Below, piece by piece: positions 14,386-63,824 of a stretch of 64,000 nucleotides of DNA; the first letter of the stretch is position 1; each line of letters opens with the position of its first letter. Source of the DNA: Amoebidium appalachense (Eukaryota; Protista; Ichthyosporea); NCBI GenBank assembly GCA_963693365.1, contig CAVNZM010000018.1:1695399-1759398 (forward strand). Direction: 5' to 3'. The notes below the pieces were generated by a model, which saw nothing but the letters and a program-made list of their open reading frames with translations, was not told the DNA's origin and did no database searches. Both the position numbers and the translations under genes were made by a program.

Positions 14386-23708
<9,323 letters not shown>

Positions 23709-42639: not shown

Positions 42640-43506
<867 letters not shown>

Positions 43507-45515
43507 TTACGTGATTTGGAGGGGATGACGTTGCTAGGCTGGACTGCCTTAATCTTATAACACAGCACCTTAAAAGAGCATATAATTGTTATATTTTCTG
43601 TGTATTAGTTTTAATGAATATATTTTGATGATTAAGATTTTTTTTCTTTTGTCCGAAAATGTATCATTAGCGAGTTACTGACAGCAAAAGCCAAAGCAGA
43701 ATCACCGAGTTGGCATGCACGAATCGCAGCACGATCGCGAATCGCGAACACGCAGACAGCTGGTCAAATGTCCGTGTGATGACGTACACGTAAAAAGCCC
43801 AACAGCCAAAAAAGATACCTGATATTGCATGTGGGTTGGTTTTAATTTTGCTTTTTCTTTATGGATCTGAACTACCAGAAACCATTCAAACACTATTAAT
43901 GGTTATGCCAAGAAGCCACATATAAACCTAAAAACAGTATAGGTCTTGGATGATCTTATCTTGGAGGTTTAGATAAAAAAAATCAGAAACTATTCCTCTC
44001 ACTTTTCACTTCATCTAAATTTAAGCAACCAATCGCAAAACACTAACAAAGAGCCAAGAGGGCGTGAATCAAGTTAGCTGATTGAACTAAGCTATGATTC
44101 GTCAAGAATGGTCACGAAAGTTTTTTATTGGCTCATTCTCAAAATATTAATGGCATGTGCAGCTCCTGCCGCCCAGTGCTCATGCATTTTTCACATTGTC
44201 ACAACAAATGAAACAGGAAATTCTATAAAGCTATTCAATATGCTAACATACAGATAAGATTAACAGGCAAATTGTTTTATTTCTTCTTATTTTTATGTGG
44301 TGCTTTTTAAACTGGCTGCTACTGTTACTAAGACATTGCTAAGGTAATTACGTCATCGAAGTACGTGCGCTGGATATGGTATTTTTCCAGCAGACTTCAA
44401 ACTGGAACATCGAATCGTTGGTTCGCAAATTCCCCTTCTGTGAAATTCGGCTAAAGCTGGTTGGAATAGGATCGCAATGCACCTAGCAATTGGCTACATA
44501 TCAGTTACAATAGAATGCCGATACGCAGAGAGCCAATCAAGCGTGTTATATTTGATAAGTAATTCCAGGGGTAATCATTGGGTCGCAGTGTGTCGCAGTT
44601 TCTACGTCATCTGTCGCATAATCTTGCGACGTCATTGGCTCCATGCGGCGAACGATCCGAATGGCTCTCGTGGAGAAAATTCTGTTTTTTGGCCCTCCCT
44701 TAGTGTAGACCTGTGAAGCACGTGACGTTTGTTGTGAAGCGGAGTCCTAAACTTAAGCTGACTAATAGTTACGTTATTTTGGAAAGTTTTAGAAAAGTTG
44801 GACCAATGGTTCAAAAGTTAAAGCGTCTTTATTGCTTCATTCTGATTGGTTGTCACACCACGGGGTTTCCCGATTGTTCTTCGAATGACAGTTTCTATCA
44901 CTATCAGACAGTTCTCCGATATTAGAACAGAAAACGGTCTCTACCCAGATGGCCAGATGGCCAGGTCAAATTCAGTGTGTGAAAAAGGTGGATAAAACGG
45001 GATAAAACGGGAGCCAAAATGATCTGGCCATCTGGCCATGTGGCCATGGAATCTCTATATCTAAAAATAGCTGGCACTGCGCCGGGGCGTGGTTCCGGGA
45101 GGCAGGGGAGGCACACGTGCAGGGGAGCACTCACTGGCACTGCGCCGGGCGTGGTTCCGGGAGGCAGGGGAGGCACACGTGCAGGGGAGGCAGGGGAGCA
45201 GGGGAGACTGGGGGGCCACTCACAGCGTGGATAAATGTTGTGTATGCATATGACCATGGTCACGTGTACTAAGAGACTCCACTGGGGGCGTGGTTCCGGG
45301 AGGCAGGGGAGCAGGGGGGCAGGGGGGCAGGGGAGGCACACGTGCAGGGGAGGCAGGGGGGGGGGGGGGGGGATAAATGTTGTGTGTGCATATGTATGTT
45401 GGTTGTGCGGCTGTTTGCGTAATAAAGGCAGAAGCCACGACACTGGGGGCGTGGTTCCGGGCAGCAGGGGGGGCAGGGGGGAGGGGGGTGACAAGGAGGA
45501 ACAGGGTTGGTTTTT

Positions 45516-45953
45516 TTATTTGGGCTTGTGCTTATGGCAATGGGTCGTAGATTTCACCCTGTTTTTGCAGGGATTGCCAGCCTTGGTTTTGCCCTGGCAG
45601 TACCCATTTTCCCTGCCCACACCCACTGCCGCAGCTACAACCGGTGGCTGTGGTGCACCCATGGGTGGATCCGGAGTGGACACAGTTGGCACGGGTACCC
45701 CGGTGCGCTCGGTGCGAGGGCGCTGCATTTCTGCGACTGTAAAGGCGGCCAGGAGGTCGTCCAGCAGGAGGTTTGCATGAGCATAGTCCCCGGCCTTGTG
45801 GGGGTGGAGGATGTTGATGGTGTTGTCGCTGTAGAGGAGGACACCGGTGGCAGGGGCAAAGCATACCCAGGGCTTGAAAATTCGGCATCTGGAGAGAGGG
45901 GTACTGGTAAAACACAAGAGCAACACGGCATCAAGAGTTTGTACCACAGGCAA
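45516..45953 (-). CDS. Small orphan protein with a C-terminal CCCH-type zinc-finger-like motif
   Basis: Ends YCQGKTKAGNPCKNRVKSTTHCHKHKPK*, the C-x3-T-x2-G-x2-C-x8-C-x2-H pattern common in large DNA virus proteins. The start is uncertain and could be internal. Confidence 0.6.
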   Translation of the reverse strand: MPVVQTLDAVLLLCFTSTPLSRCRIFKPWVCFAPATGVLLYSDNTINILHPHKAGDYAHANLLLDDLLAAFTVAEMQRPRTERTGVPVPTVSTPDPPMGAPQPPVVAAAVGVGRENGYCQGKTKAGNPCKNRVKSTTHCHKHKPK

Positions 45954-46019
45954 GATCTCAGAAGGTCACTTTTGGGGTGTAACACGTCGGATACTGAAAG
46001 TTTTGTGAGGTACACGTAC

Positions 46020-46292
46020 ATGTTCGACAGCACGGTCACCACAGGCATTCTTTATGTGATATCTATATGCAGTGTCATTGCAAATATACACTGGTACAAT
46101 TTAATGAAGTCCGAACCGAATGCTAGAGAGAAAGTGGACAAAATGTATCTGGTGTACGTCAGCGCTGCTATTGTCCTCACATGTTTATTGGTTACACCAT
46201 TGATGTATGCAGTCATATACTATTTCAATAAGAAGACGGGTGCTGCGGAGTACGACACCACTCTGAGACAAACAAGTCACTCGGACTTTTAA
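46020..46292 (+). CDS. Small two-transmembrane orphan protein, 90 aa
   Basis: 3' part of ORF 45507-46292 from the ATG at 46020. Hydrophobic segments GILYVISICSVIANIHW and YLVYVSAAIVLTCLLVTPLMYAVIYYF. Confidence 0.55.
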   Translation: MFDSTVTTGILYVISICSVIANIHWYNLMKSEPNAREKVDKMYLVYVSAAIVLTCLLVTPLMYAVIYYFNKKTGAAEYDTTLRQTSHSDF

Positions 46293-46316
46293 TCCGATTG
46301 ACGTGTCACCGCGCCA

Positions 46317-46810
46317 GCGCTGCATACAAAAAGACCCGAAGTGGAGTATACGACAAACCCAGCGCCAGCGCTTCATACCCAAAGTGGATACAATAAAAAG
46401 ACAGTTGCTGTGTGTGCAAAGCTGTGTGTGCAAAAAGAGGGGAAATAAGCGCTGCATACAAAAGCCCCGAAGTGGAGTATACGACAAACCCAGCGCCAGC
46501 GCTTCATACCCAAAGTGGATACAATAAAAAGACAGTTGCTGTGTGTGCAAAGCTGTGTGTGCAAAAAGAGGGGAAATAAGCGCTGCATACAAAAGCCCCG
46601 AAGTGGAGTATACGACAAACCCAGCGCCAGCGCTTCATACCCAAAGTGGATACAATAAAAAGACAGTTGCTGTGTGTGCAAAGCTGTGTGTGCAAAAAGA
46701 GGGGAAATAAGCGCTGCATACAAAAGCCCCGAAGTGGAGTATACGACAAACCCAGCGCCAGCGCTTCATACCCAAAGTGGATACAATAAAAAGACAGTTG
46801 CTGTGTGTGC
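46317..46810. repeat. Minisatellite, 131-bp unit, about 3.8 copies
   Basis: gcgctgcatacaaaa... units start at 46317, 46449, 46580 and 46711. Confidence 0.95.
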
Positions 46811-46821
46811 AATATACATCG

Positions 46822-47028
46822 ATAGACTTATGAAAGCACACAAACTGTGTGCCACACGGGCATGCATGCATGGGGAGGGAGTGTGGGGTGGGGGGGGAGG
46901 GGGGGAGGGGGGGGGGAGGGGGGGGGGGGGGGGGGGGGGAGACTTTGAACGTGCATAGACTTATGAAAGCACACAAACTGTGTGCCACACGGGCATGCAT
47001 GCATGGGGAGGGAGTGTGGGGTGGGGGG

Positions 47029-47065
<37 letters not shown>

Positions 47066-47156
47066 GACTTTGAACGTGCATGCAATAGACTTATGAAAGC
47101 ACACAAACTGTGTTCCACACGGGCATGCATGCATGGGGAGGGAGTGTGGGGTGGGG

Positions 47157-47188
<32 letters not shown>

Positions 47189-47431
47189 AGACTTTGAACG
47201 TGCATGCAATAGACTTATGAAAGCACACAAACTGTGTTCCACACGGGCATGCATGCATGGGGAGGGAGTGTGGGGTGGGGGGGGAGGGGGGGGGGGGGGG
47301 GGGAGACTTTGAACGTGCATGCAATAGACTTATGAAAGCACACAAACTGTGTTCCACACGGGCATGCATGCATGGGGAGGGAGTGTGGGGTGGGGGGGAG
47401 GGGGGGGGGGAGACTTTGAACGTGCATGCAA
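46822..47431. repeat. Minisatellite, 115-133-bp unit with a variable poly-G core, 5 copies
   Basis: atagacttatgaaagcacacaaactgtg...gagactttgaacgtgc units at 46822, 46955, 47085, 47209 and 47324. Confidence 0.95.
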
Positions 47432-47730
47432 GTGTGTACCAAAAGGGACCTGGACTTCTTTGTATACAATCGATATTTAATCGGTTGAAAACAGCAAAAC
47501 AAGACTTGTACATATATAATAACCACAAGATACTAAACCATCCAGAAGACTTGTACATATATAATAACCACAAATACTAAACCATCCAGAACCAGAAAAA
47601 CAAGATGCCTACATGGTGCTACCAGTATCAACAGTCATATATTAAAATACATCAGCCAGCCCCTGTGGCCATACCCAGCCCCTGACACATACAACAAAAT
47701 CAAAACACACCCCTCACCACTCCCAACCTC

Positions 47731-49122
47731 CTAATCTTGTTCGTCTTCGTGTTCATCACTGTCCGTGTGAATAACATGTACATCTGAAACTTTCTTTGCA
47801 CGTGTCCTGCCACTGCGGGCAGGGGCTGGTTTCTGACTCGGTTTTGGTTTCTTTGCTCGACCACTTTCTTTCCCTTTCTTCCCCTCGACCTTCTCGCCCA
47901 TACCCATCATGTCCTCCAATTCCTCATCTATTGCCGTCTCAAATGCCGTCTCTTCCTGGCGGTGCCGTTTGTACACACCGAAAGAAATATCTGACAGTCC
48001 TCTCTTTGAACCCTGGGGATATGCAGAGGGGTTCGACATCATGGAGGGAAGAGAGGCACCAAAAGTGCGGGATTGGGAAAAAGGTGCAGGAGTGCTGGTA
48101 ACGGTGGCGAGGGACGGATTGAAGGGGGGTACGGGCATGACAGAGGAGAAACCGGATGAGGGGAGGGCGAGAAGGGGCAGGGGGAGGTTGAGGGGGGTTT
48201 TGGGTTGAGTGGTACCGGGCGGGGGGAGGGTGGGGGTGGGATTTTGATTGGTCGTACCAGGGGGGGGGGGGGGGGGGGCGAGACCGTGTTGGACGGTAAT
48301 GTCGGGGAGGGGCTGGGGGTCATCTTTCCACCCACGAAGTTTCTGTGTGCTCTCGTCGATTGTTCTACGGTATGATTCCCTCATGGTCGCAATGTGTGAC
48401 TGAAGCCTGGTAATCTCGGCCCGGTATTTTTCCCCTTCAGCCTGATGTTCCAGGATATCGGCCACCTTTCCAACAAGCTGCCCTTCGAGGGAGGATATCG
48501 GCCACCTTTCCAACAAGCTGCCCTTCGAGGTCCCGATTCTTTTCCGATAACACCTGTTCCTTTGCATCTGCAAAGTGTTTTTGTTTGGCCGCCGCCGATT
48601 TTAGCTCGGCAATTTCCCCCTTAAGGATTTGGATGTCGTGATCCTTCGTTTGTAATTCTTTCTCTGCGGCTTCCAGCTTCTCCTGCAATTCGGTGGTTGG
48701 GGTGGTGACAGCGGGTGCAGTGGCCGCAGTACCGACCTTTGCCAATGCAGAGGCAATGGCACTGTCTACTTTCGACTGCAACACAGTCTCCAAGTACTCT
48801 TCGAACATTTTTGGATCGACGGGAGCAGTGTCGCCGGAGTGTGGGGGGGGGGTTGGATGGGGGGGGGATTTCGCCGCCGGAGTGTGGGGGGGGGTTGGAT
48901 GGGGGGGGGGGGATTTCGCCGCCGGAGTGTGGGGGGGGGTTGGATGGGGGGGGGATTTCGCCGCCGGAGTGTGGGGGGGGGGTTGGATGGGGGGGGGATT
49001 TCGCCGCCGGAGTGTGGGGGGGGGTTGGATGTGGGGAAGGCTTCCGATGTGACGGGGTCGGCGGACTTGCTGATGTTGGTTTCGTATGACCCCGACCCGG
49101 GAGTTTGCTGGGAATAATCCAT
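47731..49122 (-). pseudogene. Orphan coiled-coil/proline-rich protein gene, frameshifted
   Basis: ATG at 49122 (MDYSQQTPGSG). It encodes HSGGEIPPPSNPPP repeats with slipped C-runs, a coiled coil ELQEKLEAAEKELQTKDHDIQILKGEIAELK, and an acidic/basic tail. A 40-bp tandem duplication (48451-48530) shifts the frame between ORFs 48437-49465 and 47731-48573. Confidence 0.7.
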
Positions 49123-50610
49123 CGTGACAGTTTTCACAAAAAAAAAGGATAAACAAAGGGAAAAAAAGAAAGGAAGTCTTACGTTTCTCTGCGCAAACAC
49201 AGTCGTGTGCAAACCCAGTCGTGAACAAGGGAAAAAGGAAAAAAAAAAAACAAGGGAAAAAGGCAAAAAAAAAAAAAAAGAAAGTGCTACGAATACGATT
49301 CTCTGTTGTGAACAAAGGAAAAAGTAAAAAAAAGAGTGTTACGTTTCTCTGCGCAAACACAGTCCTGTGCAAACCCAGTCGTGAACAAGAGAAAAAGAAA
49401 AAAAAAAAGAGAGTGTTACGTTTCTCTAGGCAAACACCGTCGTGTGCAAACACAGCCATGAACAAAAGAATCAGAAAAGTAGAAAATGACAGCGCTGTGA
49501 ACTGATATAAAAAACCGCCATCAATTATTTATATGAAGCCATTGCGCAAAATACGATCTTATGTTACGAGAATCAAGCATAAGAAAAACAGAACTTTTTG
49601 GCGCTGTTAGTGAATATATCTCTAATCGTGTTTGGTTCACAGGTAAACTGTATAAAAAAGGTGAATATACGAAATAAAAATATAATATACAGGACAAAAC
49701 GAGCGCTAGTTTAAAACATCGAAGGATATACGCTTTCACAACATCTTATTCGCGGACCTTTTTACGTGCAAGCGTTTTGATTGGTGCATAGGGGTTGGTT
49801 CTTGCCCCACGTGATTCGCGGCGCTGATGCTCAGGGTATTCTGATTGAGCGAAATCGAAGCATCGGATTCAAATTAGGCAAATACAAAACGCTTTCCAAC
49901 CAAAATCCCAAGCGCATGGTTGTTTATTTATAGAACCTTATATGTCATAAAACATACAACCCTCTTTTAGGATTTCCCTTATTCCTTGCTCAGTCAAAAC
50001 GCTCCAGGGTCGGTGCTGCTATCAGTCACTAATTTCATTGGCCAGTCATCACGTAAATGCGCCAGCCAACAAAACCAATCGGTGATTGGTGAATAGTGGT
50101 TGGGTCAACGTGATCGGGCACTGGTACTCTAGGCAAGCGCTTATCGGCATTGGTACAATCTAGTTGGTCAATACACCGTGACTCAAGGCTGCAACGCTTT
50201 TCGAAGACCAGATTCACAGGACCCTTTCCAAACAAAATTCCAAGCAAATGTCTGTGTCCGCGTACAGTATAAATAAACATAAATAAATTATGCTTTTTTA
50301 ATATTTATTGCCTATTAGAATAAATCACAATTGTTACTCGCAAAAGGGTCTTGGTTGGGCAGGCTGGCCTTGCTACCCAAACTATTATTAGCCGATCTCA
50401 CTGATTAGCTTATTATCACGTACGCGCCAATCAGTGATTCCATTGGCCAAACTGAACAAAACATTAATTGGCCAGTCATCAAAAACGTGATTTTCTTGAT
50501 TGCTTCAAGCTTTGCGAAATGAGAATATATGTTCAACACTCTCTTTGCGCTCTATATACAACGGAGAAATTACAAGAGTCCATCTTGATTCCCGAACGAA
50601 CAAATATAAC

Positions 50611-50869
50611 CAAGCGCACCACACCAGTTCGTGTTACTTTCGCCCGGCGCTGCTGTTGTACATGTTTCAAACATAACCAAGCGCGCCACACCAATTCGTG
50701 TCACTTTCGCCCAGCGCTGCTGTTGTGCATGTTTCAAACGTAATCAGGCGCACCACATCAGTTCGTGTCACTTTCGCCCAGCGCTGCTGTTGTGCATGTT
50801 TCAAACATAATCAAGCGCACCACACCAGTTCGTGTCACTTTCGCCCGGCGCTGCTGTTGTACATGTTTC
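50611..50869. repeat. Minisatellite, about 67-bp unit, 4 copies
   Basis: caagcgcaccacaccagttcgtgtcactttcgcccggcgctgctgttgtacatgtttcaaacataa repeated. Confidence 0.93.
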
Positions 50870-51169
50870 CATTGTAATTACAAATAGGCTAGATTGCCAA
50901 AAACAGAACGAAAACAACAAAGAAACTTGTTATAATAACCTGTGCACACCGCGCTATCAGTTGTCCCCTTTTTTAGCCAATACAGATACATAGAATTTCC
51001 TTCATGTTTCCCTGTGCGAGGCACATTTTAGGCTTATGCACACAATCGTAGATTGTTTGGGATACGAAAACAGAGCACACACACAAACGAGTTCTGCTAA
51101 ACACAAACATTGTTAGACTGGACACAAAAAACATAGCGCGCGCATGCACGAGCTTTCCTAGGAACGATT

Positions 51170-51287
<118 letters not shown>

Positions 51288-51598
51288 AAGCACGAGCGCT
51301 ACAACACGGTGGCACAAGCACACAGACAGAGCGCTCTCACAGACAGTCTTACAGGCAGAGGGTGCTCACAATTACACACATCACAAAAACACACACAGCA
51401 ACATGGCTGTTAACGGCAATATTCTGGCGCTCATCACTCGTGCATTCCCGAGCACCATACCACTCAACCCACCCACATTTAGGCTTTCGAACGACGTTGA
51501 TCCGTCAGTTATATTTACCGGTGAAAGGCTACTCACACGTCAGAGTATTTATCGTCATCCTCAAAAAAAAAAAACTCGCACCGATCATATATTTGGTG

Positions 51599-52890
51599 AT
51601 GCCAACGGGTTCAGAACATGTTTATGTTTTTTTGATTGAACTGGACGACGGACGTCCTAGTTGCAGGAAGAACTACAACCTACACAAATTCGAAAACGAC
51701 ATGGGCATCCCGGCAGTTGTAGCCTGGATTCTCAGATTTGGTGGTCCTCGATGGAAGATTTATGATCTTCACAGCTATCATCCGTTTTCGAGTGAGGGTT
51801 GGGCGGTGAAGCTCGGTCGCATTTCTCTGTATCCTGGCAGTAACGACTACAGTCGCATACCTGCCGTGGTGGGTACTTTGCCGGGGGAGTTCCAGATTTG
51901 TCGCATGTTCAAAAAGCACGGATGGAAAGTGTGGTGGGATGGGGCTGCACGTAGCCCCCCAGGCAGCCCCGCTTTCAAGCTACCTGCACCGACGAGTGAC
52001 CGACCGAGAAAGCGGGCAAGAGTGGAGGGGGGAGAGGGAGGGGGTGGGGAGGGGGGGAGAGGGAGGGGGTGGGGAGGGGGGGGGGGGAGAGGGAGGGGGG
52101 TGGGGAGGGGGGGGGAGAGGGGGAGGGAGAGGGGGGAGAGGGGGGGGGGAGGGGGGGGAGAGGGGGAGGGAGAGGGAGAGGGTGGGGGTGGGGAGGGGGG
52201 AGAGGGGGAGGGGGAGGGAGAGGGAGAGGGTGGGGGTGGGGAGGGGGGAGAGGGGGAGGGGGAGGGAGAGGGAGAGGGTGGGGGTGGGGAGGGGGGAGAG
52301 GGGGAGGGGGAGGGAGAGGGAGAGGGTGGGGATGGGGGGAGGGAGAGGGAGGGGCAGAGGGGGCAGAGGGCTACCGCCACACCCGCAACACATCTCCTTG
52401 GGATTTCAGGCCGGGTAACCCCCCCCCCCCCCCCAACACACAAGCCATTACACGTCTGCACGCATGCATGCACCTGGGCTATCCCCCCTCTCCCCGCACA
52501 CACACGGAAGGGATCACACGTCTGCACGCACACATGCACCTGGGCTATCCCCCCTCTCCCCGCACACACACGGAAGGGATCACACGTCTGCACGCACGCA
52601 TGCACCTGGGCTATCCCCCCGCTCCCCCCCCTCCCCCCCCCCCCCAACACACAAGCCATTACACGTCTGCACGCATGCATGCACCTGGGCTATCCCCCCT
52701 CTCCCCGCACACACACGGAAGGGATCACACGTCTGCACGCATGCATGCACCTGGGCTATCCCCCCTCTCCCCGCACACACACGGAAGGGATCACACGTCT
52801 GCACGCATGCATGCACCTGGGCTATCCCCCCTCTCCCCGCACACACACGGAAGGGATCACACGTCTGCACGCACGCATGCACCTGGGCTA

Positions 52891-52964
<74 letters not shown>

Positions 52965-55900
52965 CACACAAGCCATTACACGTCTGCACGCATGCATGCA
53001 CCTGGGCACCTCGACTAGTCCCCGCCACACACACCCAACCACCACCACCACCACACACATACACACAGAGAGAGAGAGAGAGAGAGAGAGCACACACCTG
53101 CACACGTGCATCCACCTTGGCTAATCCTACCCCCCACCCCGACACACACGCACACGCACACCCGGCACAAACATGCACACACACCCGGCACACACGTGCA
53201 CACACGCATGGCACACACACACACACACACAGAGCAAGAAGCGGAGGAGGCGGATAGGGGGCAACAGCAGGGGGCGGAGACAGGGGAGTCGGTGGGGTTC
53301 ACCGAGGTACCCGTGAAACATCTCAGCCAACTGCAGTTAGAAAAGCTCTCATTTGAGACGATAGTTAGGGTAATGGAAAAACGACACGGGGTTCGGGCAG
53401 CTGGTGCCGTCAAGTTCATGCTTCCCGAACCGGTAGTGCAGGGGCTGAAAGAGGCTGCTTGGGCCACACCAGTGAGAAAATCCTACACCAAGATCTGTCT
53501 GGAGGCTACCGCCATCAAGGATGTCTTCCTCGTTTATAGGGAGGACATCAAAGAGCAAATTCCAGAGGTGCGTATTTGCAACCATTAGGGTATGGTTACC
53601 GTGAACAGGAGCTAACACGATTGAGCAGGGGGACCCGTTGGATGAGGAGGAGTTCTGGGGGCTATTGGACTGCTTACCGGAAACTTACAGTAAAATGTTC
53701 TTTTACGGAACGGATCTGACACCTCTTAAAAACACCCATACACCCAGTGAGGTACGTGTGTGTCATGTGTGTGTATGTGCGTGTGTTTGTGCAGAGGGTG
53801 CATGTTGTGTAGGCATGGGTGTATTCGTGTGTGTGTGCAGCAGAGGGTGCATGTTGTGTAGGCATGGGTGTATTCGTGTGTGTGCAGCAGAGGGTGCATG
53901 TTGTGTAGGCATGGGTGTATTCGTGTGTGTGCAGCAGAGGGTGCATGTTGTGTAGGCATGGGTGTATTCGTGTGTGTGCAGCAGAGGGTGCATGTTGTGT
54001 AGGCATGGGTGTATTCGTGTGTGTGCAGCAGAGGGTGCATGTTGTGTAGGCATGGGTGTATTCGTGTGTGTGCAGCAGAGGGTGCATGTTGTGTAGGCAT
54101 GGGTGTATTCGTGTGTGTGCAGCAGAGGGTGCATGTTGTGTAGGCATGGGTGTATTCGTGTGTGTGCAGCTGAGGGTGCATGTTGTGTAGGCATGGGTGT
54201 ATTCGTGTGTGTGCAGCAGAGGGTGCATGTTGTGTAGGCATGGGTGTATTCGTGTGTGTGCAGCAGAGGGTGCATGTTGTGTAGGCATGGGTGTATTCGT
54301 GTGTGTGCAGCTGAGGGTGCATGTTGTGTAGGCATGGGTGTATTCGTGTGTGTGCAGCAGAGGGTGCATGTTGTGTAGGCATGGGTGTATTCGTGTGTGT
54401 GCAGCAGAGGGTGCATGTTGTGAAGGCATGGGTGTATTCGTGTGTGTGCAGCAGAGGGTGCATGTTGTGTAGGCATGGGTGTATTCGTGTGTGTGCAGCA
54501 GAGGGTGCATGTTGTGTAGGCATGGGTGTATTCGTGTGTGTGCAGCAGAGGGTGCATGTTGTGTAGGCATGGGTGTATTCGTGTGTGTGCAGCAGAGGGT
54601 GCATGTTGTGTAGGCATGGGTGTATTCGTGTGTGTGCAGCAGAGGGTGCATGTTGTGTAGGCATGGGTGTATTCGTGTGTGTGCAGCAGAGGGTGCATGT
54701 TGTGAAGGCATGGGTGTATTCGTGTGTGTGCAGCAGAGGGTGCATGTTGTGTAGGCATGGGTGTATTCGTGTGTGTGCAGCAGAGGGCGCATGTTGTGTA
54801 GGCATGGGTGTATTCGTGTGTGTGCAGCAGAGGGTGCATGTTGTGAAGGCATGGGTGTATTCGTGTGTGTGCAGCAGAGGGTGCATGTTGTGTAGGCATG
54901 GGTGTATTCGTGTGTGTGCAGCAGAGGGTGCATGTTGTGTAGGCATGGGTGTATTCGTGTGTGTGCAGCAGAGGGTGCATGTTGTGAAGGCATGGGTGTA
55001 TTCGTGTGTGTGCAGCAGAGGGTGCATGTTGTGTAGGCATGGGTGTATTCGTGTGTGTGCAGCAGAGGGTGCATGTTGTGAAGGCATGGGTGTATTCGTG
55101 TGTGTGCAGCAGAGGGTGCATGTTGTGTAGGCATGGGTGTATTCGTGTGTGTGCAGCAGAGGGTGCATGTTGTGTAGGCATGGGTGTATTCGTGTGTGTG
55201 CAGCAGAGGGTGCATGTTGTGAAGGCATGGGTGTATTCGTGTGTGTGCAGCAGAGGGTGCATGTTGTGTAGGCATGGGTGTATTCGTGTGTGTGCAGCAG
55301 AGGGTGCATGTTGTGTAGGCATGGGTGTATTCGTGTGTGTGTGCAGCAGAGGGTGCATGTTGTGTAGGCATGGGTGTATTCGTGTGTGTGTGCAGCAGAG
55401 GGTGCATGTTGTGTAGGCATGGGTGTATTCGTGTGTGTGCAGCAGAGGGTGCATGTTGTGTAAGCATGGGTGTATTCGTGTGTGTGCAGCAGAGGGTGCA
55501 TGTTGTGAAGGCATGGGTGTATTCGTGTGTGTGCAGCAGAGGGTGCATGTTGTGTAGGCATGGGTGTATTCGTGTGTGTGCAGCAGAGGGTGCATGTTGT
55601 GTAGGCATGGGTGTATTCGTGTGTGTGCTTGTGTAGGCATGGGTGTGTGCGTGTGTTTGTGCGGAGAGTGTATGTTGTGTTGATGCAATGTGGTGTGTGT
55701 ACAGGTAGTGAGGGAAGAAATCGACTACATGTTCAGCTTGGAGACGCTGGGCTCGATTGTATCGAGAGAGTTCCAGAACTGTGAGGGCATCTCAACACCG
55801 ATGCTCTATAAGTATGCCCCCCCACCCCTTCCCCCCCCCCAAAAAAAAACACAACAACAAACAACAAAGGGAAAAAAGGCAGGTTTGCAGAATGCCCCTT

Positions 55901-56727
55901 TTGTTCACAGAACCATCCTGGGTGTATGTGTATGGGTCAGGTCTTCTCGGAATGTATTGGATCACATCGAAGTCGGAACTAATTATTAACCCCAATCACA
56001 TGCCTCCTTGCAGTGTCACGACGGGGTCTCCGTTTGTGCCCCACACAGAAGACGTTCTGCTCGGAAGTGTCAACATCATGACCCGTGGGCCCGGAGACAA
56101 AAGCTGGTATATAATCAGTGCAGAGTACAATGGACAGGTCACGTCTATCCTTGAGGATATCTACAAGAGGCTTGGCCTTTCGGGGGCCGGTATCTGCAAG
56201 AAAGTCACACAGCATAAGGTAATCCCTCACCCCCCCCCCCCCCAAAAAAAAAAAAAACAAAAAAAAAAACGACCACACACACAACAGAGGACTACAAGAA
56301 GAGAGAGAGAGGGAGTGGTAGACACTGACGTGAATGACGTGAAGAACAAAAAACAAAAAAGCACTTACAAAAACGACCACCCGGTTTTTCATATGACTAA
56401 CATGTGGGTGGGACAGTCTGTGTTCATCCACCCCCGTTACTTGATGAAGAAGGGTGTTCCTGTGCAGCACACGGTTCAGCAGGCCGGCGAGGTCATCTAC
56501 ACATTGCCTGGGGCATACCACTTTGGGTATGCTACTGGTAGCAGCTTGGCCGAGGCGGTAAATTTTGCCACGGTCAACTGGCTTGTGGTCGCTGGCAAGA
56601 AGCCCCCCCGGCATGCACGTGTGGCTACACTGACAGGAAACACGTTTTCAAGGTAACCCCCCCTCCCCCCCCCTCCCCCCCCCCCAAAAAAAAAAAAAAA
56701 AAAAAAAAACACGTAACACACACACAC

Positions 56728-56824
<97 letters not shown>

Positions 56825-57151
56825 ATGCCCTAGCATTCACAATTACATGTAGGGGTTCGTAAAAACGGTTTTTTGGGTCCTTGCAGAGTTTTTCTTGACC
56901 TGGTCCACACGTAGGAGTTCGTTTTCTGTGGGTGTGTGCCATGGTGGTGTAGTGGTGGGTGCGTGGGTGTGTTTGAGGTAATGGCATACAGTGATGTCTG
57001 AGCCTTGCATAAACAAATCACCTGGCTGGACTACTACTTACACCCAACTATCAACCCACAGGTGTCCCCTGCACAGTGGAAAAAGCTGAGAGAGAAGTAC
57101 AAGGCTGACATCAAGGAGTTCGAGGAGGAAGCCAAAATGAATGTGGCCTAG
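51599..57151 (+). CDS. Divergent KDM4-like JmjN/JmjC histone demethylase, about 7 exons, with homopolymer frameshift(s)
   Basis: Exons 51599-52414 (tentative), 53233-53567 (GAVKFMLP, JmjN-like), 53629-53751 (EEEFW..FYGTD), 55705-55811 (EGISTPMLY), 56014-56218 (FVPHTED..SVNIM..KSWY..C..QHK), 56417-56652 (QQAGEVIYTLPGAYHFG..AEAVNFA..W), 57062-57151. One extra C in the C7 run at 56603-56609 restores PPACTCG and the phase of the last exon. Confidence 0.85.
52436..53010. repeat. Intronic minisatellite, 66-bp unit, about 8 copies
   Basis: cacgtctgcacgcatgcatgcacctgggctatcccccctctccccgcacacacacggaagggatca repeated. Confidence 0.93.
53790..55640. repeat. Intronic minisatellite, 47-bp unit, about 39 copies
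   Basis: gcagcagagggtgcatgttgtgtaggcatgggtgtattcgtgtgtgt fills the JmjC intron 53752-55704. Confidence 0.98.
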
Positions 57152-57620
57152 GGTTTGTGGTGGGTGCGGTGGGGGAAACGTAGTTGTAGTGGTGGCGGCG
57201 GGTAGGCCCCACATTCACATCTTACTTAGGGTTTGTGGTGGGTGCGGTGGGGGAAACGTAGTTGTAGTGGTGGCGGCGGGTAGGCCCCACATTCACATCT
57301 TACTTAGGGTTTGTGGTGGGTGCGGTGGGGGAAACGTAGTTGTAGTAGTGGTGGCGGCGGGTAGGCCCCACATTCACATCTTACTTAGGGTTTGTGGTGG
57401 GTGCGGTGGGGGAAACGTAGTTGTAGTGGTGGCGGCGGGTAGGCCCCACATTCACATCTTACTTAGGGTTTGTGGTGGGTGCGGTGGGGGAAACGTAGTT
57501 GTAGTGGTGGCGGCGGGTAGGCCCCACATTCACATCTTACTTAGGGTTTGTGGTGGGTGCGGTGGGGGAAACGTATTTGTGGTGGTGTGGGCAGTAGGCA
57601 CACATCCACATCTATAGGGG
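57149..57620. repeat. Minisatellite, 78-bp unit, about 6 copies, starting at the JmjC stop codon
   Basis: tagggtttgtggtgggtgcggtgggggaaacgtagttgtagtggtggcggcgggtaggccccacattcacatcttact repeated. Confidence 0.95.
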
Positions 57621-57870
57621 TTTGTGATGGGTGTGGTGGAGGAAAGACGTGGTACAAAGTTTTCATACCAAGTTTTCTGTAATGTTTATTCGAATGTGAT
57701 CTGCTTCAATCTTATCCAAATTTTCATGTATATTGTATTTGCCCGGTAACAGTACCAAGTTTCCGTAATGATTATTGAATGTATTTGCCCGTGGTAGCGG
57801 GAGAGACTCCATTTAATATACCCCAAGTCTCCTTTTCAATCTGTGTACAAGCACACTGGCACGTACATTG

Positions 57871-57943
<73 letters not shown>

Positions 57944-58156
57944 CACACAATGATACACATGCTACCAAGTTTTCATTGAACGGTGTAGGGGAGGGGGGGG
58001 GGGGGGGGGGGGAGATAGACTCCAGCTCATCAAAATTAAACATCCCAACAGATTCTCTCGTCATTTACATTTTCCATGTTTGTGGAGATTCTCTCGTCAT
58101 TTACATTTTCCATGTTTGTGGTGTGAGTCCATTCATCCTTTGGCTTGTGTAGGTCT

Positions 58157-58417
58157 CTATGCATCCTCAGGCTCCATCATCTTCTGCAGTACAATTGCTG
58201 TCTGTCGTTGATTCTTCGGCACCCACTTCTTGAATCCACACTTCTCCGCCAACTCATCGGGCAGATCTATATAGCCCTTTTCCGCAAGCTCTTGTGCGTA
58301 TGCTCGTTGCTCCATCTGCGTCCGCCGGGTGGTGGCCTCGGTCGGCACAATAGTTGCCTGCACCACGGGTGCCTTGCCGGGCTCCTCCTTCAGCTTGTAC
58401 TCCCATCGGTACGCCAT
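58157..58417 (-). CDS. Orphan 86-aa protein
   Basis: ATG-to-stop ORF with normal composition, only 36 bp downstream of the co-oriented Cys-rich ORF. Confidence 0.55.
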   Translation of the reverse strand: MAYRWEYKLKEEPGKAPVVQATIVPTEATTRRTQMEQRAYAQELAEKGYIDLPDELAEKCGFKKWVPKNQRQTAIVLQKMMEPEDA

Positions 58418-58453
58418 ACTCTATGCCACAAAAATCTCTGCTCACCCAACCCT

Positions 58454-58846
58454 TCAAGTGCGCTCCTTGATCACCACCGCAGGCGCATGCGCACACGTGG
58501 GGCACGCCGGGCACTTCTGCTCGGGCGGGCAGCGCGTGCATGCGGGGCACTGTGCGCACCGGGCGGGGCTGGCACCGCACACGTGGCAGCGGGGGCAGTG
58601 CGCACACTTGCGGCGGGGAACGCAGCTGCCGCAGCTGGCACACATTGGGCACGCGCGCTGGCACTTGAGCACTGCCAGGCGCCGCCGCACACGTGGGCTG
58701 AACGTGTCCCAGAGCACGTAGAGGATCAGGCCGGCCAGGATGGCCAATAGGATGGGGGAGGGCCCGGGGGTGCTGCGCGGGCTTGTGCGGATCGGGGGAG
58801 GGGGTGCGAATGGGCTGGGTGGGGGAAGGGGTGCGCCAGCGTCCAT
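58454..58846 (-). CDS. Single-pass membrane protein with a CxxC/CPxC-rich tail, 130 aa
   Basis: TM segment ILLAILAGLILYVLW, a basic RVRRR stop-transfer, then CPMCASCGSC..CAHCPRCHVC..CAQCPACTRC..CPACPTC. Confidence 0.7.
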   Translation of the reverse strand: MDAGAPLPPPSPFAPPPPIRTSPRSTPGPSPILLAILAGLILYVLWDTFSPRVRRRLAVLKCQRACPMCASCGSCVPRRKCAHCPRCHVCGASPARCAQCPACTRCPPEQKCPACPTCAHAPAVVIKERT

Positions 58847-58906
58847 GTTACCCGGTGCACGATATAATGTGGGGTTGGGGTTGTGCGGGTAGATGGGAGG
58901 AGGGTT

Positions 58907-58949
<43 letters not shown>

Positions 58950-59593
58950 CGCTCATGACCGTACTCTCCAACAACACAGGTGCAAGCGCACGGTAATAGC
59001 GCTCATGACCGTACTCTCCAACAACACAGGTGCAAGCGCACGGTAATAGCGCTCATGACCGTACTCTCCAACAACACAGGTGCAAGCGCACGGTAATAGC
59101 GCTCATGACCGTACTCTCCAACAACACAGGTGCAAGCGCACGGTAATAGCGCTCATGACCGTACTCTCCAACAACACAGGTGCAAGCGCACGGTAATAGC
59201 GCTCATGACTGTACTCTCCAACAACACAGGTGCAAGCGCACGGTAATAGCGCTCATGACCGTACTCTCCAACAACACAGGTGCAAGCGCACGGTAATAGC
59301 GCTCATGACCGTACTCTCCAACAACACAGGTGCAAGCGCACGGTGATAGCGCTCATGACCCTACTCTCCAACAACACAGGTGCAAGCGCACGGTAATAGC
59401 GCTCATGACCGTACTCTCCAACAACACAGGTGCAAGCGCACGGTAATAGCGCTCATGACCGTACTCTCCAACAACACAGGTGCAAGCGCACGGTGATAGC
59501 GCTCATGACCCTACTCTCCAACAACACAGGTGCAAGCGCACGGTGATAGCGCTCATGACCCTACTCTCCAACAACACAGGTGCAAGCGCACGG
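58950..59593 (+). repeat. Minisatellite, 50-bp unit, about 13 copies (left arm of an inverted pair)
   Basis: gctcatgaccgtactctccaacaacacaggtgcaagcgcacggtaatagc repeated in tandem. Confidence 0.98.
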
Positions 59594-60069
59594 GCAGGCC
59601 CGACCATAACCCCGTTTTTACGGTAAAAAATACCCCAAAATATCATCATAATTTCAGTTTATGGTAAGCCTCCGCAAATTTCGTGTTAAGCTAAAATAGG
59701 AACCACCCTTTATCCCCTTTGACTGGGGATGAAAAATACCATACACCCCAGGCAAAAATACTCCGGGGCTTGAAAATATACCAAGAAACAAATCCGAATT
59801 TTCGGGCTTGCGCACGGGTTATGCAACCAATTGGATGGCATCCACGTTTGGCCAATCAGCGCGGCTAGCCCATGGTAACGGGATTGTTCTCTAGATTTAT
59901 CCAATCGGGATCATCCAGTTAAAAGATGTGTAATCCGCGTTTAGCCAATCAGCGCGATGACTGATGTTATATCCAAATCTTGTCAAATACACCGAACTCA
60001 GCTGCACGAAAACACAACAGGATTTGGCATGTAGGGTATAGGCAGAATTATAATATTTCGCTGTCAGCA

Positions 60070-61836
60070 ATGGGACTTGCACCCTCAATGCCAGTGCGTG
60101 TTCGGATCATTCCATCGAGGACACCGCTGTTGTTAGGCCCTGTAGGGGAAGATGTTGCAGTGTTTTCTCTTGCAAACACCAACGGCCTTGCCACGGTTTC
60201 AACCCCCGAAAATGTCACTCTCGTGGAAACGTTGCACCCTTTTGTTGTGTTTGAGGTAGACACCTCGTTGAGTCTATTGCAACTGCAGGAAGAGTTGAAA
60301 GCAGGTTTCCGTGCATGCACCGCGGTGTACCTCCGAAGCTATGACAAGCTGGCCGTGTACAACCCTGAAGGGCGCTGTTGCCTTCCAACTAGGACGGTGA
60401 TGCAGGCCACAGCAGCAGAGATTGCGGCAAAAATGTCCGAACTGGACCAAAAAACGAGCGAGAGCTTTGCCGATATGTTTTTTGCAACCTCCACGTTGGC
60501 GGATGTCCAATACGCGATAGCGAATAACAGTGATTTTCAGGATAGTAGGTTCTGGAACTGGTGGGGTTTACTACCTGAGGATGCTATTAGAAGGATCGTA
60601 GAGACACACCCCAGTGAGGGGTACACGGGGGACGGCAAACTGCGGCATTACCCGCCGTGCACTGCGTGGTTGCGAGGGTCTGCAGGAGTTGTCAAGTTAG
60701 ACAGCTCTGCGTATACGTTAGAGTCGTTTAACACGTGTTTGCTGCTGCGATTGATGGACCATTATGCCCACCGGAGGGACCACGACGACGACGGCTACGA
60801 CGATGTCCATGCGACTATAATACTAGATATGGCCACCCAAAAGGCCAATATTTTGGCACAAGCTGCCTCAAACCCGCCAGTTACAACTGCACCCCGTACC
60901 CAAGCCCACCTGTACGACTACACAAACATCATTAGACACAAGCTGGGATGGGACAAAAAGCTTTCGAATTTAATTGACAGGGTCCAGGCGGATTACAGCG
61001 AGGGTGGGCCTGCCGAGCGCAAAAACATATTCGGGCGGTACACGGGATATTTTGCTTACGAGATTCAGGAAGGGCAGGAAGAAGGCGAGTTTGTTCCCCT
61101 GGGCCAGATCGATACCGACATCGAAACCGTCGAAATTTCCACATTCATGCGGCGTCTGCAAGTGGGCGTGTCGTGGCAGATGCTTGTGGACGTCATGAAC
61201 AAACGACACGTCATGGTGCTTCCCTTCGATTGGGGAGACTTCATTGACACAACCAGGAAAGATGTTGAGCGCGAAGAGTTCCGAAAAGCCCAAGAGGAGG
61301 GGCAAGGTAGAGATTTGCCATTCGTTGTTGACGGGTTGTATGCTTACGACACCGAAACCCGGCAAGCGGCCGTCATCTACCCCCCGAGTGGATATGACCA
61401 AATCATGCTCAACGATGCCGACGGCGTCTGCCCGTGGCAGGCAGAAATCGAGCATTATTGGGTAGAAACCCCCTCCGACCATTTGGAACAACAGCGCAGC
61501 AGCTATATCGGTATTAACAAGACCACGGGCCAGCCTGACACGTCTCCCAGCGCGGATGCCCTGTGGAGTGCTGTTCCTATCGCCGAGGTTTTGGATGGTG
61601 CGGATTGGTACCCGCAACTGCCGTGTCAGACAGCCCTCGAGGATGCCATCAGGAATCACCATGTGCAAGTAGTTGGTGAACCATACGACCACTGGTTGTA
61701 TTATGAAGCAGCAACCAACACATGGGATGAACTTTGGCCTGACTGTGATCGGTATCACCATATTACCAGCAGGCCAGGCGACTTCGTGCCTTTTTACGAT
61801 CAATGGCCGGACGGATCGGTATCACCATATTACTAG
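60070..61836 (+). CDS. Intronless orphan protein, 588 aa
   Basis: Uninterrupted non-repetitive ORF with first ATG at 60070. Four CCAAT motifs lie upstream (59827-59949) and AATAAA lies at 61869-61874. No domain recognised. Confidence 0.85.
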   Translation: MGLAPSMPVRVRIIPSRTPLLLGPVGEDVAVFSLANTNGLATVSTPENVTLVETLHPFVVFEVDTSLSLLQLQEELKAGFRACTAVYLRSYDKLAVYNPEGRCCLPTRTVMQATAAEIAAKMSELDQKTSESFADMFFATSTLADVQYAIANNSDFQDSRFWNWWGLLPEDAIRRIVETHPSEGYTGDGKLRHYPPCTAWLRGSAGVVKLDSSAYTLESFNTCLLLRLMDHYAHRRDHDDDGYDDVHATIILDMATQKANILAQAASNPPVTTAPRTQAHLYDYTNIIRHKLGWDKKLSNLIDRVQADYSEGGPAERKNIFGRYTGYFAYEIQEGQEEGEFVPLGQIDTDIETVEISTFMRRLQVGVSWQMLVDVMNKRHVMVLPFDWGDFIDTTRKDVEREEFRKAQEEGQGRDLPFVVDGLYAYDTETRQAAVIYPPSGYDQIMLNDADGVCPWQAEIEHYWVETPSDHLEQQRSSYIGINKTTGQPDTSPSADALWSAVPIAEVLDGADWYPQLPCQTALEDAIRNHHVQVVGEPYDHWLYYEAATNTWDELWPDCDRYHHITSRPGDFVPFYDQWPDGSVSPYY

Positions 61837-61984
61837 CAGGGTAGGTGACTTCGTGCTTTTTCACAATCAATAAAATTCAACTTATTATAAATATGTGACA
61901 CTCAGTGCATTCTCACGAAGGGGGTGGGGGGGGGGGGGGGGGGGGGGGGGGGTGGGGGGGGGGGGGGGGGGGGGGGGGGGATGG

Positions 61985-62599
61985 GTGCGCTTGCACCTGT
62001 GTTGTTTGAGAGTAGGGTCATGAGCGCTACCACCGGGTGCTTCCACATGTGTTGTGTGAGAGCTGAGGCATGAGCGCTATCACCGGGCGCTTCCACATGT
62101 GTTGTGTGAGAGCTGAGGCATGAGCGCTATCACCGGGCGCTTTTACATGTGTTGTGTGAGAGCTGAGGCATGAGCGCTATCACCGGGCGCTTCCACATGT
62201 GTTGTGTGAGAGCTGAGGCATGAGCGCTATCACCGGGCGCTTCCACATGTGTTATGTGAGAGCTGAGGCATGAGCGCTATCACCGGGCGCTTCCACATGT
62301 GTTATGTGAGAGCTGAGGCATGAGCGCTATCACCGGGGGCTTTGTGGGTGTGTGTGGGGGGTGGGGGGGGGGGGGTGGGGGGGGGGGGGGGGGGGGGGGG
62401 AGGGGGGAAGGGGGGGGGGGGGGGATGGGTGCGCTTGCACCTGTGTTGTTTGAGAGTAGGGTCATGAGCGCTACCACCGGGCGCTTCCACATGTGTTGTG
62501 TGAGAGCTGCGGCATGAGCGCTATCACCGGGCGCTTCCACATGTGTTGTGTGAGAGCTGAGGCATGAGCGCTATCACCGGGGGCTTTGTGGGTGTGTGT

Positions 62600-62657
<58 letters not shown>

Positions 62658-63180
62658 GGGGGGAGGGGGGGGGGAAGGGGGGGGGGGGGGGATGGGTGCG
62701 CTTGCACCTGTGTTGTTTGAGAGTAGGGTCATGAGCGCTATCACCGGGCGCTTCCACATGTGTTGTGTGAGAGCTGAGGCATGAGCGCTATCACCGGGCG
62801 CTTCCACATGTGTTGTGTGAGAGCTGAGGCATGAGCGCTATCACCGGGGGCTTTGTGGGTGTGTGTGGGGGGTGGGGGGGGGGGGGGGTGGGGGGGAGGG
62901 GGGGGGGAGGGGGGGGGGAAGGGGGGGGGGGGGGGGGGGGATGCGTGCGCTTGCACCTGTGTTGTTTGAGAGTAGGGTCATGAGCGCTATCACCGGGCGC
63001 TTCCACATGTGTTGTTTGAGAGCAGGGTCATGAGCGCTATCACCGGACGCTTCCACATGTCATCGGGCGCTTTGTGTGTGTGTGTATGTGTGTGTGTGTG
63101 TGGGGGGGGGGGGGGAGGGGCAATGCGTGCGCTTGCACCTGTGTTGTTTGAGAGGAGCACGAGCGCTATGACCGTGCGCT
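61985..63180 (-). repeat. Inverted, higher-order array of the 50-bp unit with poly-G spacers (right arm)
   Basis: gtgcgcttgcacctgtgttgtttgagagtagggtcatgagcgcta(c/t)caccg is the reverse complement of the 58950 unit. It alternates with a variant unit gcgcttccacatgtgttgtgtgagagctgaggcatgagcgctatcaccgg. Confidence 0.95.
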
Positions 63181-63535
63181 CTTTGTTTTGTTTTTTGGGG
63201 GAGGGGTCTTCCCACCCTCTTGCCCGTGGCTTCTCTATTTATTTTTCATCTTTTACGTCTTTGCCTGGAGTGTACCCAGTGCGCTTCCTGGAGAAGCACG
63301 TGCTGGGGTGGTAGCTAGCCTGTCATCCCCAACAATTGGGACTCCTGTCAATAAACGGTTTCGACCAATCAGATTGAACCGGTTTCGTACAATCAGATTT
63401 AATGTTTCGACCAATCAGATTGAATAACGGGTGAAAACGATTCAAGCATTATTCAAAGGTGGTCTCTGTGATTCGATCAATATTGAAATGGATGCTCCGT
63501 GGATCGAAAGATATTGACCGAGGGTTCGTGTTTGG

Positions 63536-63710
63536 TTGACCGGATATTGGCAGGGGTTCGCGCGATGTTCGTTTTGGGTTCACTAGATTTTCGCCAAACA
63601 CGAGTTCGGGTTGACCGGATATTGGCAGGGGTTCGCGCGATGTTCGTTTTGGGTTCACTAGATTTTCGCCAAACACGAGTTCGGGTTGACCGGATATTGA
63701 CCAAAAGGGT
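63536..63710. repeat. Tandem repeat, 75-bp unit, about 2.3 copies
   Basis: ttgaccggatattggcaggggttcgcgcgatg... units at 63536, 63611 and 63686. Confidence 0.9.
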
Positions 63711-63824
63711 TCGTGTTTGGCTGGATGGATATTGGCCAACTCCTGCGCTGCTTTGACCGTTTATTGGCCAACTCTGCGCTGCTTTGACTTTTTGCCCATG
63801 GCTTCTTTATTTATTTTTCATCTT

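What the first reader, a model, noticed from the sequence alone, without database searches (positions are those of the whole stretch)
51599..57151. KDM4-like histone demethylase carried inside a virus-like island: candidate anti-silencing cargo
Seen: a hand-spliced protein keeps every position equivalent to the KDM4A catalytic set. These are Fe ligands H-T-E..H (HTED, AYHFG), 2-OG ligands Y (FYGTD), N (SVNIM) and K (DKSWY), and the KDM4-specific Zn site C..H (ICKKVTQHK) plus CxC (CTC, after one extra C in a C7 run). The rest is highly divergent, has no PHD or Tudor reader domains, and appears fused to an orphan N-terminal domain. The S288-equivalent position is Ala (AEAVNF). Established: KDM4 enzymes erase H3K9me2/3 and H3K36me2/3, and Ala at this position favours dimethyl substrates. 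From memory and unverified, KDM4-like genes have been reported in giant-virus insertions of the ichthyosporean Amoebidium. Inference: the element captured a host demethylase, with spliceosomal introns, to resist heterochromatin.
Basis: partly seen in the sequence, partly recalled or inferred. Interest (0 to 1): 0.82.

Follow-up and report, generated by a model that had tools for sequence, protein, structure and literature searches.

The report
Virus-type histone demethylase gene, known family
This is a real seven-exon gene for a stripped-down KDM4-type enzyme that keeps its iron, co-substrate and zinc residues and likely removes silencing marks from histones, but it matches a family already reported, with the same hypothesis, from giant-virus insertions of the protist Amoebidium.

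Summary
The gene is real. It has seven exons with GT-AG introns, and a spliced contig of a paralogue in public runs supports 5 of the 6 junctions. The Zn set and the Lys241 equivalent are shared with a canonical KDM4 and not with a KDM5. The C-run frameshift is probably an assembly error: 3 of 4 runs have the open-frame length and none has the window's. Two runs also extend exon 1 upstream to ATG 51403. A DNA paralogue shows purifying selection in catalytic exon 6 (pN/pS 0.21). The window holds no viral hallmark gene, so 'virus-like island' is unproven. AEAVNF is shared with trimethyl-active KDM5s. The only spliced copy found is frame-broken. Sarre et al. 2024 (PMC11244446) already describe intron-bearing, reader-less KDM4-likes in 39% of Amoebidium giant-virus insertions and propose anti-silencing. 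Verdict: new member of a known kind. The orphan N-terminal part is the only open novelty.

The parts
51403..52414 (+). Exon 1: orphan N-terminal region (about 200 aa, ending in a basic NLS-like stretch RPRKRAR), then a Gly/Glu-rich low-complexity linker (52022-52370). ATG 51403 is in frame if the A run at 51563-51574 has the length seen in runs X2 and X6; otherwise the start is ATG 51599.
   Evidence: no true homologue; donor GTAACC at 52415
52415..53232 (+). Intron 1 (818 nt, repeat-filled). The acceptor could instead be 53267 or 53270, depending on the frame through the G-rich tract.
   Evidence: not bridged by any RNA-type contig
53233..53567 (+). Exon 2: acidic stretch and a very divergent JmjN-equivalent region
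   Evidence: alignment; no Pfam hit; paralogue contig covers 53373-53568
53629..53751 (+). Exon 3: FW helix and FYGTD (Tyr132 and Asp135 equivalents)
53752..55704 (+). Intron 3 (1953 nt), filled by 39 copies of a 47-bp unit
   Evidence: junction seen in loose ends of the spliced contig
55705..55811 (+). Exon 4: EG (Glu169, Gly170) and MLY (Tyr177 kept, Tyr175 replaced by Met)
56014..56218 (+). Exon 5: HTED (Fe ligands His188, Glu190), SVN (Ser196, Asn198), K (Lys206), C..HK (Cys234, His240, Lys241)
56417..56652 (+). Exon 6: His276 (AYHFG), AEAVNF, C run 56603-56609, CxC 56614-56622
57062..57151 (+). Exon 7: short charged tail and stop; no reader domain
44900..64000 (.). Surrounding block of intronless orphan ORFs and minisatellite arrays. 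ORFs: 45516-45728 (-), 45780-46292 (+), 47731-49122 (-, broken), 58157-58417 (-), 58454-58846 (-), 60070-61836 (+), 63811-64000 (-, open). Candidate eroded viral insertion; borders not defined.
   Evidence: no family or viral hit

Best explanation
This is a spliced, reader-less, highly divergent KDM4-type JmjN-JmjC gene that likely belongs to the giant-virus-associated KDM4-like family described in Amoebidium, and it is predicted to be an active Fe(II)/2-oxoglutarate demethylase that would strip repressive H3 lysine methylation, most likely H3K9me2/3, from chromatin on or around viral DNA. Shown: the exon structure, the full Fe/2-OG/Zn residue set, the absence of PHD/Tudor, several paralogue classes, and selection on the catalytic exon. 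Inferred: (1) the window's one-base slips are homopolymer errors and the gene is intact; (2) the host is Amoebidium or a close ichthyosporean and the orphan block is an eroded viral insertion; (3) an ancestral virus took a host KDM4 with its introns, lost the readers and gained an N-terminal module with a nuclear signal; (4) the enzyme hydroxylates the N-methyl group and releases formaldehyde as KDM4A does, delaying heterochromatin. My odds: intact gene about 0.85; member of the published family about 0.8; viral remnant at this locus about 0.6; H3K9 as substrate about 0.5.
For: Residue set and spacing match KDM4A through a bridging canonical KDM4. Cys234/His240/CxC and Lys241 are absent from the KDM5 comparator. 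Of the five H3K9-binding residues named in PMC3308871, three are kept (Asp135, Glu169, Lys241). A spliced paralogue contig supports 5 of 6 junctions. 3 of 4 runs have the open-frame C run. The exon 6 paralogue has 7 synonymous and 5 non-synonymous changes, pN/pS 0.21, p 0.009. The architecture (introns kept, JmjC only, multicopy, intron-poor neighbours) is that of PMC11244446 section 8. Intron-rich host genes end by about 24 kb and intronless orphans fill 45-64 kb.
Against: No viral hallmark lies in the window and no IMG/VR relative was found for any neighbour tested. Exons 2-4 alone do not score above shuffles against KDM4 or KDM5 (39 and 44 against maxima 49 and 50), so the Ile71/Asn86 specificity region cannot be read, and Tyr175 and Trp187 are changed. 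The only spliced contig is a paralogue that is 2 nt short at 53477 and 1 nt short at 56118. Run X1 has a 6-C run that would stop the protein before CxC. The listed exon 2 differences are mostly non-synonymous (10 of 12). The flank is shared with few differences by runs of two organism labels, which fits an old, fixed locus as well as a recent insertion.
Confidence: 0.6

Rival explanations
1. Domesticated or host-born paralogue: the same enzyme family, but this copy is a resident host gene like the basal copies flanked by host genes, and it serves host chromatin regulation rather than a virus.
For: PMC11244446 reports a couple of such copies. There is no viral hallmark in the window. The locus and flank are present in runs of two other organism labels with few differences. 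The introns look like host introns, with poly-C starts and CA ends.
Against: The immediate neighbours are intronless orphans rather than normal intron-rich host genes. A related upstream region recurs in another contig class at the same depth as the paralogue (583 and 582 in X2), a hint of a duplicated block.
Confidence: 0.2
2. Decaying cargo: the family was once functional in a virus, but this copy and its relatives are pseudogenising passengers with no present role.
For: The window has a frameshift at 56603-56609, run X1 has another length there, and the spliced paralogue has two indels. The neighbour ORF at 47.7-49.1 kb is broken.
Against: 3 of 4 runs have the open frame. All catalytic positions are intact. 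pN/pS is 0.21 in exon 6 and 0.18 in the listed exon 4 rows. The breaks in the window all fall in homopolymers.
Confidence: 0.1
3. An active oxygenase with a changed target: H3K36, H3K4 (KDM5-like), H3K27 or a non-histone protein. It would then reprogramme or shut down host transcription rather than resist silencing.
For: The KDM4 margin is small (239 vs 209). Exon 6 alone is closest to JMJ14 and KDM5A. The substrate-binding N-terminal half has diverged to background, and Tyr175 and Trp187 are replaced.
Against: The KDM4-type Zn set and Lys241 are kept, and there is no ARID, PHD or C5HC2 domain. The published phylogeny places the family in KDM4.
Confidence: 0.08
4. The ordinary single-copy host KDM4 orthologue, mis-assembled.
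For: It has spliceosomal introns and host genes 28 kb upstream.
Against: It is far too divergent: score 239 against a canonical KDM4, whereas that KDM4 scores 416 even against KDM5. It has no PHD/Tudor and several paralogue classes. The paper reports a separate canonical orthologue in Amoebidium.
Confidence: 0.02

Closest known systems
KDM4-like JmjC genes of Amoebidium giant endogenous viral elements (Sarre et al. 2024, PMC11244446; sections 7, 8, 10, 15, passages and supplement text read, figures not seen)
   Same: Divergent KDM4 paralogue, no PHD/Tudor, multi-exon gene among intron-poor neighbours, multicopy, some copies transcribed. The same anti-silencing hypothesis is stated there.
   Different: The paper says the enzymes contain only the JmjC domain by Pfam and, in the text I read, gives no residue-level analysis and no N-terminal extension. 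Here a ~200-aa orphan region and an acidic linker appear to precede it. Viral core genes and methylation could not be shown for this locus.
Human KDM4A-E and yeast Rph1 (JMJD2 family; PDB 2OQ6, 6F5R, 3OPT)
   Same: His188/Glu190/His276, Tyr132/Asn198/Lys206, Ser196, Gly170/Tyr177/Asn290, Cys234/His240/Cys306/Cys308, Asp135/Glu169/Lys241. Reader-less and Ala at 288 like KDM4D/E.
   Different: The JmjN and substrate-binding half is not detectable by Pfam or above shuffles. Tyr175 is Met and Trp187 is Pro. There are insertions around Lys206 and before Cys234, and an orphan N-terminus.
KDM5/JARID1 and plant JMJ14
   Same: AEAVNF motif and the best hits for exon 6 alone.
   Different: No ARID, PHD or C5HC2 domain. 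It has the KDM4-type C..HK and CxC, which the KDM5 comparator lacks.
JmjC/cupin genes of Filamentoviridae, Megaviricetes and a cyanophage (PMC11013392, one passage read)
   Same: Virus-borne JmjC proteins gained by horizontal transfer.
   Different: Not reported as KDM4-type in that passage; Sarre et al. found no KDM4-like in public giant-virus genomes.

Membership tests
KDM4/JMJD2 demethylases | Fe ligands H-x-E...H in a JmjC domain | tested here: met
   HTED and AYHFG align to KDM4D/A; Pfam JmjC E 1.6e-12
KDM4/JMJD2 demethylases | 2-OG ligands Tyr132, Asn198, Lys206 | tested here: met
   alignment; residue roles from PMC13632499
KDM4/JMJD2 demethylases | Zn site Cys234, His240, Cys306, Cys308 | tested here: met
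   Aligned to canonical KDM4 L001 and absent from KDM5 P0003. CxC is in frame only with the run length seen in 3 of 4 runs. The identity of the four Zn ligands is recalled.
KDM4/JMJD2 demethylases | JmjN domain directly before JmjC | tested here: inconclusive
   Scattered identities in the alignment, but no Pfam hit and exons 2-4 are not above shuffles
KDM4/JMJD2 demethylases | Placement in the KDM4 clade by phylogeny | tested here: inconclusive
   Only one KDM4 and one KDM5 full reference were available: scores 239 vs 209; PDB best KDM4D 51.5 vs KDM5A 47.6 bits. No tree was built.
KDM4/JMJD2 demethylases | H3K9/H3K36 me2/3 demethylase activity | not testable with these tools
   needs an assay
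Canonical KDM4A-C type orthologue | C-terminal PHD and Tudor domains | tested here: not met
   Stop at 57151, 29 codons into exon 7; no such Pfam hit
Amoebidium GEVE KDM4-like family | Multi-exon, JmjC-only, divergent KDM4 paralogue | tested here: met
   against the description
Amoebidium GEVE KDM4-like family | Multicopy family | tested here: met
   X2 holds exon 2 contigs with 1 and 16 differences, X6 with 4 and 51; the spliced contig is a further variant. No copy number can be given.
Amoebidium GEVE KDM4-like family | Host is Amoebidium and sequence falls in the published clade | not testable with these tools
   No genome held, run names are coded, and no family member was found in the protein collections
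Giant endogenous viral element | NCLDV core genes (MCP, VLTF3, A32, D5) in the block | tested here: not met
   None within the window. The block runs off the right end, so the test covers only 45-64 kb.
Giant endogenous viral element | Gene-dense, intron-poor orphan genes | tested here: met
   Seven intronless orphan ORFs in 45-64 kb against intron-rich FPP synthase and PITP genes at 1-24 kb
Giant endogenous viral element | Non-CGC/GCG hypermethylation; polymorphic insertion | not testable with these tools
   CpG counts by context were uninformative; the flank is present in two other organism labels

The most novel reading that the evidence does not exclude
The virus-borne KDM4-likes are not just truncated. 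This one has swapped the PHD/Tudor readers for a new ~200-aa N-terminal targeting module with a nuclear signal and an acidic linker, and has rebuilt the substrate-binding half while keeping the catalytic and zinc core under purifying selection. That would make it a retargeted demethylase that finds viral or DNA-methylated chromatin, a dedicated counter-silencing weapon with a new reader fold.
Probability: 0.2. Interest if true: 0.65.

Novelty: new member of a known kind. Interest (0 to 1): 0.28.

Why it matters
The idea that giant viruses carry a captured KDM4 to erase host heterochromatin is published, but I found no enzymatic test of it in five literature searches. This locus adds a residue-level case that the catalytic and zinc sites are complete and under selection, plus a splice model supported at 5 of 6 junctions, so it is a usable candidate for that assay. 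The orphan N-terminal region could show how a reader-less viral demethylase is aimed. As a discovery it is modest, because the family and the hypothesis are already in print.

Tried and rejected
No whole genome is held, so copy number, synteny and the host's own KDM4 were not examined. Exon 2 found no homologue among 237 candidates. Exon 6 returned 1 of 34 candidates, a mollusc KDM5. The N-terminal region (132 aa from 51599) gave 2 hits among 1.84 billion representatives. Both were rejected as summed repeat matches in an OGG1-like protein and an HYR-repeat protein. The Atlas gave no usable hit, and the single-sequence fold was uninformative (pLDDT 35), so no fold search was run. The 53-aa upstream piece was scanned only against Pfam and PHROGs. 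IMG/VR scans found no relative for exon 6, the N-terminal region, ORF 60070, ORF 45728 or the 50-bp repeat; these use few exact peptides and are weak negatives. The one hit for the Cys-rich ORF (L025) covers only its proline-rich start in a phage-like contig and was rejected. The metagenome scan gave 24 loci from 478 candidate stretches. L001-L006 encode one canonical intronless KDM4 and L007-L024 KDM5-like exons; none resembles this family. ORF 60070-61836 had no hit in Pfam, PHROGs, PDB or the protein search, and the Atlas best score was 0.81; its fold has pLDDT 33. I suspected from memory a giant-virus DUF5763-like motif in ORF 45728; Pfam did not support it. CpG context counts gave no border. 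No listed run is on record as RNA, and exon 1 has no cover in the RNA-type runs; neither says anything about expression. NCBIfam was not searched. Three earlier-finding look-ups were empty.
Full report
Gene model. The + strand from 51.4 to 57.2 kb holds seven exons: 51403/51599-52414, 53233-53567, 53629-53751, 55705-55811, 56014-56218, 56417-56652 and 57062-57151. All six introns are GT..AG. Intron 3 is 39 copies of a 47-bp unit. Run X18 (RNA by the tool's guess) holds one 1184-nt contig that lies on exons 4, 5, 6 and 7 in order with the introns absent, and its loose 5' end matches the end of exon 3. The same contig, and a 1183-nt twin in X19 from the same sample, joins exon 2 to exon 3. So 5 of 6 junctions are supported, from one sample. 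The DNA-type runs show no such joints. The exon 1-2 junction is not bridged; it rests on a donor identical to that of intron 6 and a CA-ended acceptor, and its phase depends on the G-rich tract that the tool skipped.

Frameshifts. With 6, 7 or 8 bases in the run at 56603, the frame stops before CxC, misses it, or reads through CxC to the stop at 57151. X2, X6 and X18 have 8, X1 has 6, and none of the 4 has the window's 7. All the breaks in the window are in homopolymers. I infer assembly slips; the alternative Amoebidium isolates in PMC11244446 were assembled from nanopore reads with Medaka polishing discarded (section 15), though I do not know that this window is one of them. These runs differ slightly from the window (for example at 55985 and 56152), so they do not prove the state of this isolate.

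Enzyme identity. Exon 6 hits Pfam JmjC at E 1.6e-12. Exons 5 and 6 together hit KDM4D best (51.5 bits) and KDM5A next (47.6) in the PDB; exon 6 alone prefers JMJ14 and KDM5A. A metagenome locus, L001, encodes a canonical KDM4 (E 5e-98 to KDM4A) and gave a bridge to KDM4A numbering. The spliced core, with X at the C run, scores 239 against it and 209 against the KDM5 P0003, with shuffles near 34. Columns shared only with KDM4 number 36 and only with KDM5 28; at least two of the 36 come from a misaligned YGAD in the KDM5 row. Kept positions: Tyr132, Asp135, Glu169, Gly170, Tyr177, Phe185, His188, Glu190, Ser196, Asn198, Lys206, Trp208, Cys234, His240, Lys241, His276, Asn290, Cys306, Cys308. Changed: Tyr175 to Met, Trp187 to Pro, Ser288/Thr289 to Ala/Val. 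The Zn set and Lys241 are the KDM4-specific part. Of the five H3K9-binding residues named in PMC3308871 (passages), Asp135, Glu169 and Lys241 are kept, Tyr175 is lost and Asn86 cannot be aligned, because exons 2-4 alone do not exceed shuffles. The S288A/T289I change raises dimethyl activity in KDM4A. But AEAVNF is also in KDM5A/B/C, which demethylate H3K4me3, and in L001, so it does not predict a dimethyl preference here.

Copies and selection. DNA runs hold a window-like class and at least one more divergent class: X2 has exon 2 contigs with 1 and 16 differences, X6 with 4 and 51, and X1 and X2 each have exon 6 contigs with 0 and 15. All 15 of the latter are listed: 3 are intronic, 7 synonymous and 5 non-synonymous, pN/pS 0.21, binomial p 0.009. 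For exon 4, 10 of 14 differences were listed (6 synonymous, pN/pS 0.18). For exon 2, 12 of 16 were listed and 10 are non-synonymous (pN/pS 1.5), which does not show constraint. Against the expression side of the story, the spliced contig is a paralogue (22 differences in 196 nt of exon 2) that is 2 nt short at 53477 and 1 nt short at 56118. On window letters either loss leads to a stop, so that transcript cannot carry His188 and His276 in one frame. I have no evidence that the window's own copy is transcribed.

Surroundings. The left part of the window holds intron-rich host genes, a polyprenyl synthase and a phosphatidylinositol transfer protein. An intronless ubiquitin-ubiquitin-AN1 gene lies at 42640-43317. 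From about 45 kb on there are only intronless orphan ORFs and minisatellite arrays. None gave a convincing match in Pfam, PHROGs, exact look-up or IMG/VR. The layout fits an eroded viral insertion, but no hallmark gene is present and the block runs off the window's end. The 588-aa ORF at 60070-61836 lies between inverted arrays of a 50-bp unit, which looks like a separate foldback-type element. Runs labelled organism B and C hold the 47.6-52 kb flank with few differences, so the locus is not private to this assembly.

Comparison with what is known. PMC11244446 (abstract, sections 7, 8, 10, 15, passages and supplement text read; figures 2E and S6C not seen, and they may show domain layouts or loci that bear on the N-terminal question) reports that JmjC is the most enriched domain in Amoebidium giant-virus insertions. 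These are divergent KDM4 paralogues without PHD/Tudor, they keep introns, they occur in 39% (52) of insertions, four are transcribed, a couple lie among host genes, and they may help the virus avoid H3K9me3 silencing. The finding repeats this point for point. No call named the organism; the assignment to Amoebidium is inferred from that match. Five paper searches showed no enzymatic test of these proteins; two further papers checked by passage search had no mention of KDM4 or JmjC. One earlier scan note on another genome describes a spliced demethylase-like gene in an algal giant virus; I did not test it.

Verdict. The enzyme is probably intact and KDM4-type, the viral context is plausible but unproven, and the family and hypothesis are published. 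What stays open is the orphan N-terminal region, about 200 aa ending in a basic NLS-like stretch (motif type recalled), for which no homologue or fold was found. Novelty: new member of a known kind. Interest 0.28.

Noticed in passing
window 58949-63060: A 588-aa orphan ORF (60070-61836) lies between inverted arrays of a 50-bp tandem unit (58949-59593 on +, 61985-63060 on -), like a foldback-type transposon. No homologue or confident fold was found.
   Followed up: partly
window 42640-43317 (-): Intronless gene for two ubiquitin units fused to an AN1 zinc finger, at the edge between intron-rich host genes and the orphan block. It could be a host gene, a retrocopy or viral cargo.
   Followed up: partly
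run X18/X19 contig laid on window 53373-57129: The one spliced family member seen is 2 nt short at 53477 and 1 nt short at 56118 and ends with a different tail after 57129, so a frame-broken paralogue appears to be spliced and transcribed.
   Followed up: partly
window 58454-58846 (-): 130-aa ORF with a Pro-rich start, one hydrophobic segment and a tail with 16 Cys in CPxC repeats, a layout I recall from small giant-virus membrane proteins; no real database hit.
   Followed up: partly
window 45516-45728 (-): 70-aa ORF ending in a C-x8-C-x8-C-x-x-H-like basic motif; only a weak Pfam zf-primase score, E 0.027.
   Followed up: partly
window 56219-56416: Intron 5 is 198 nt and open in frame, so exons 5 and 6 read as one ORF if it is retained.
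   Followed up: no
window 1300-11000 (-) and 14380-23700 (+): Divergent intron-rich host genes: a polyprenyl (FPP-type) synthase and a phosphatidylinositol transfer protein, the latter with a near-duplicate of one exon at about 17010-17105.
   Followed up: partly
window 1-600 (-): Fragment that reads like a non-LTR retrotransposon reverse transcriptase (ORF 469-999 and downstream; seen, not searched).
   Followed up: no
L001-L006: An intronless canonical KDM4 in 62-63% GC metagenome contigs that has Ala at the Ser288 position.
   Followed up: partly
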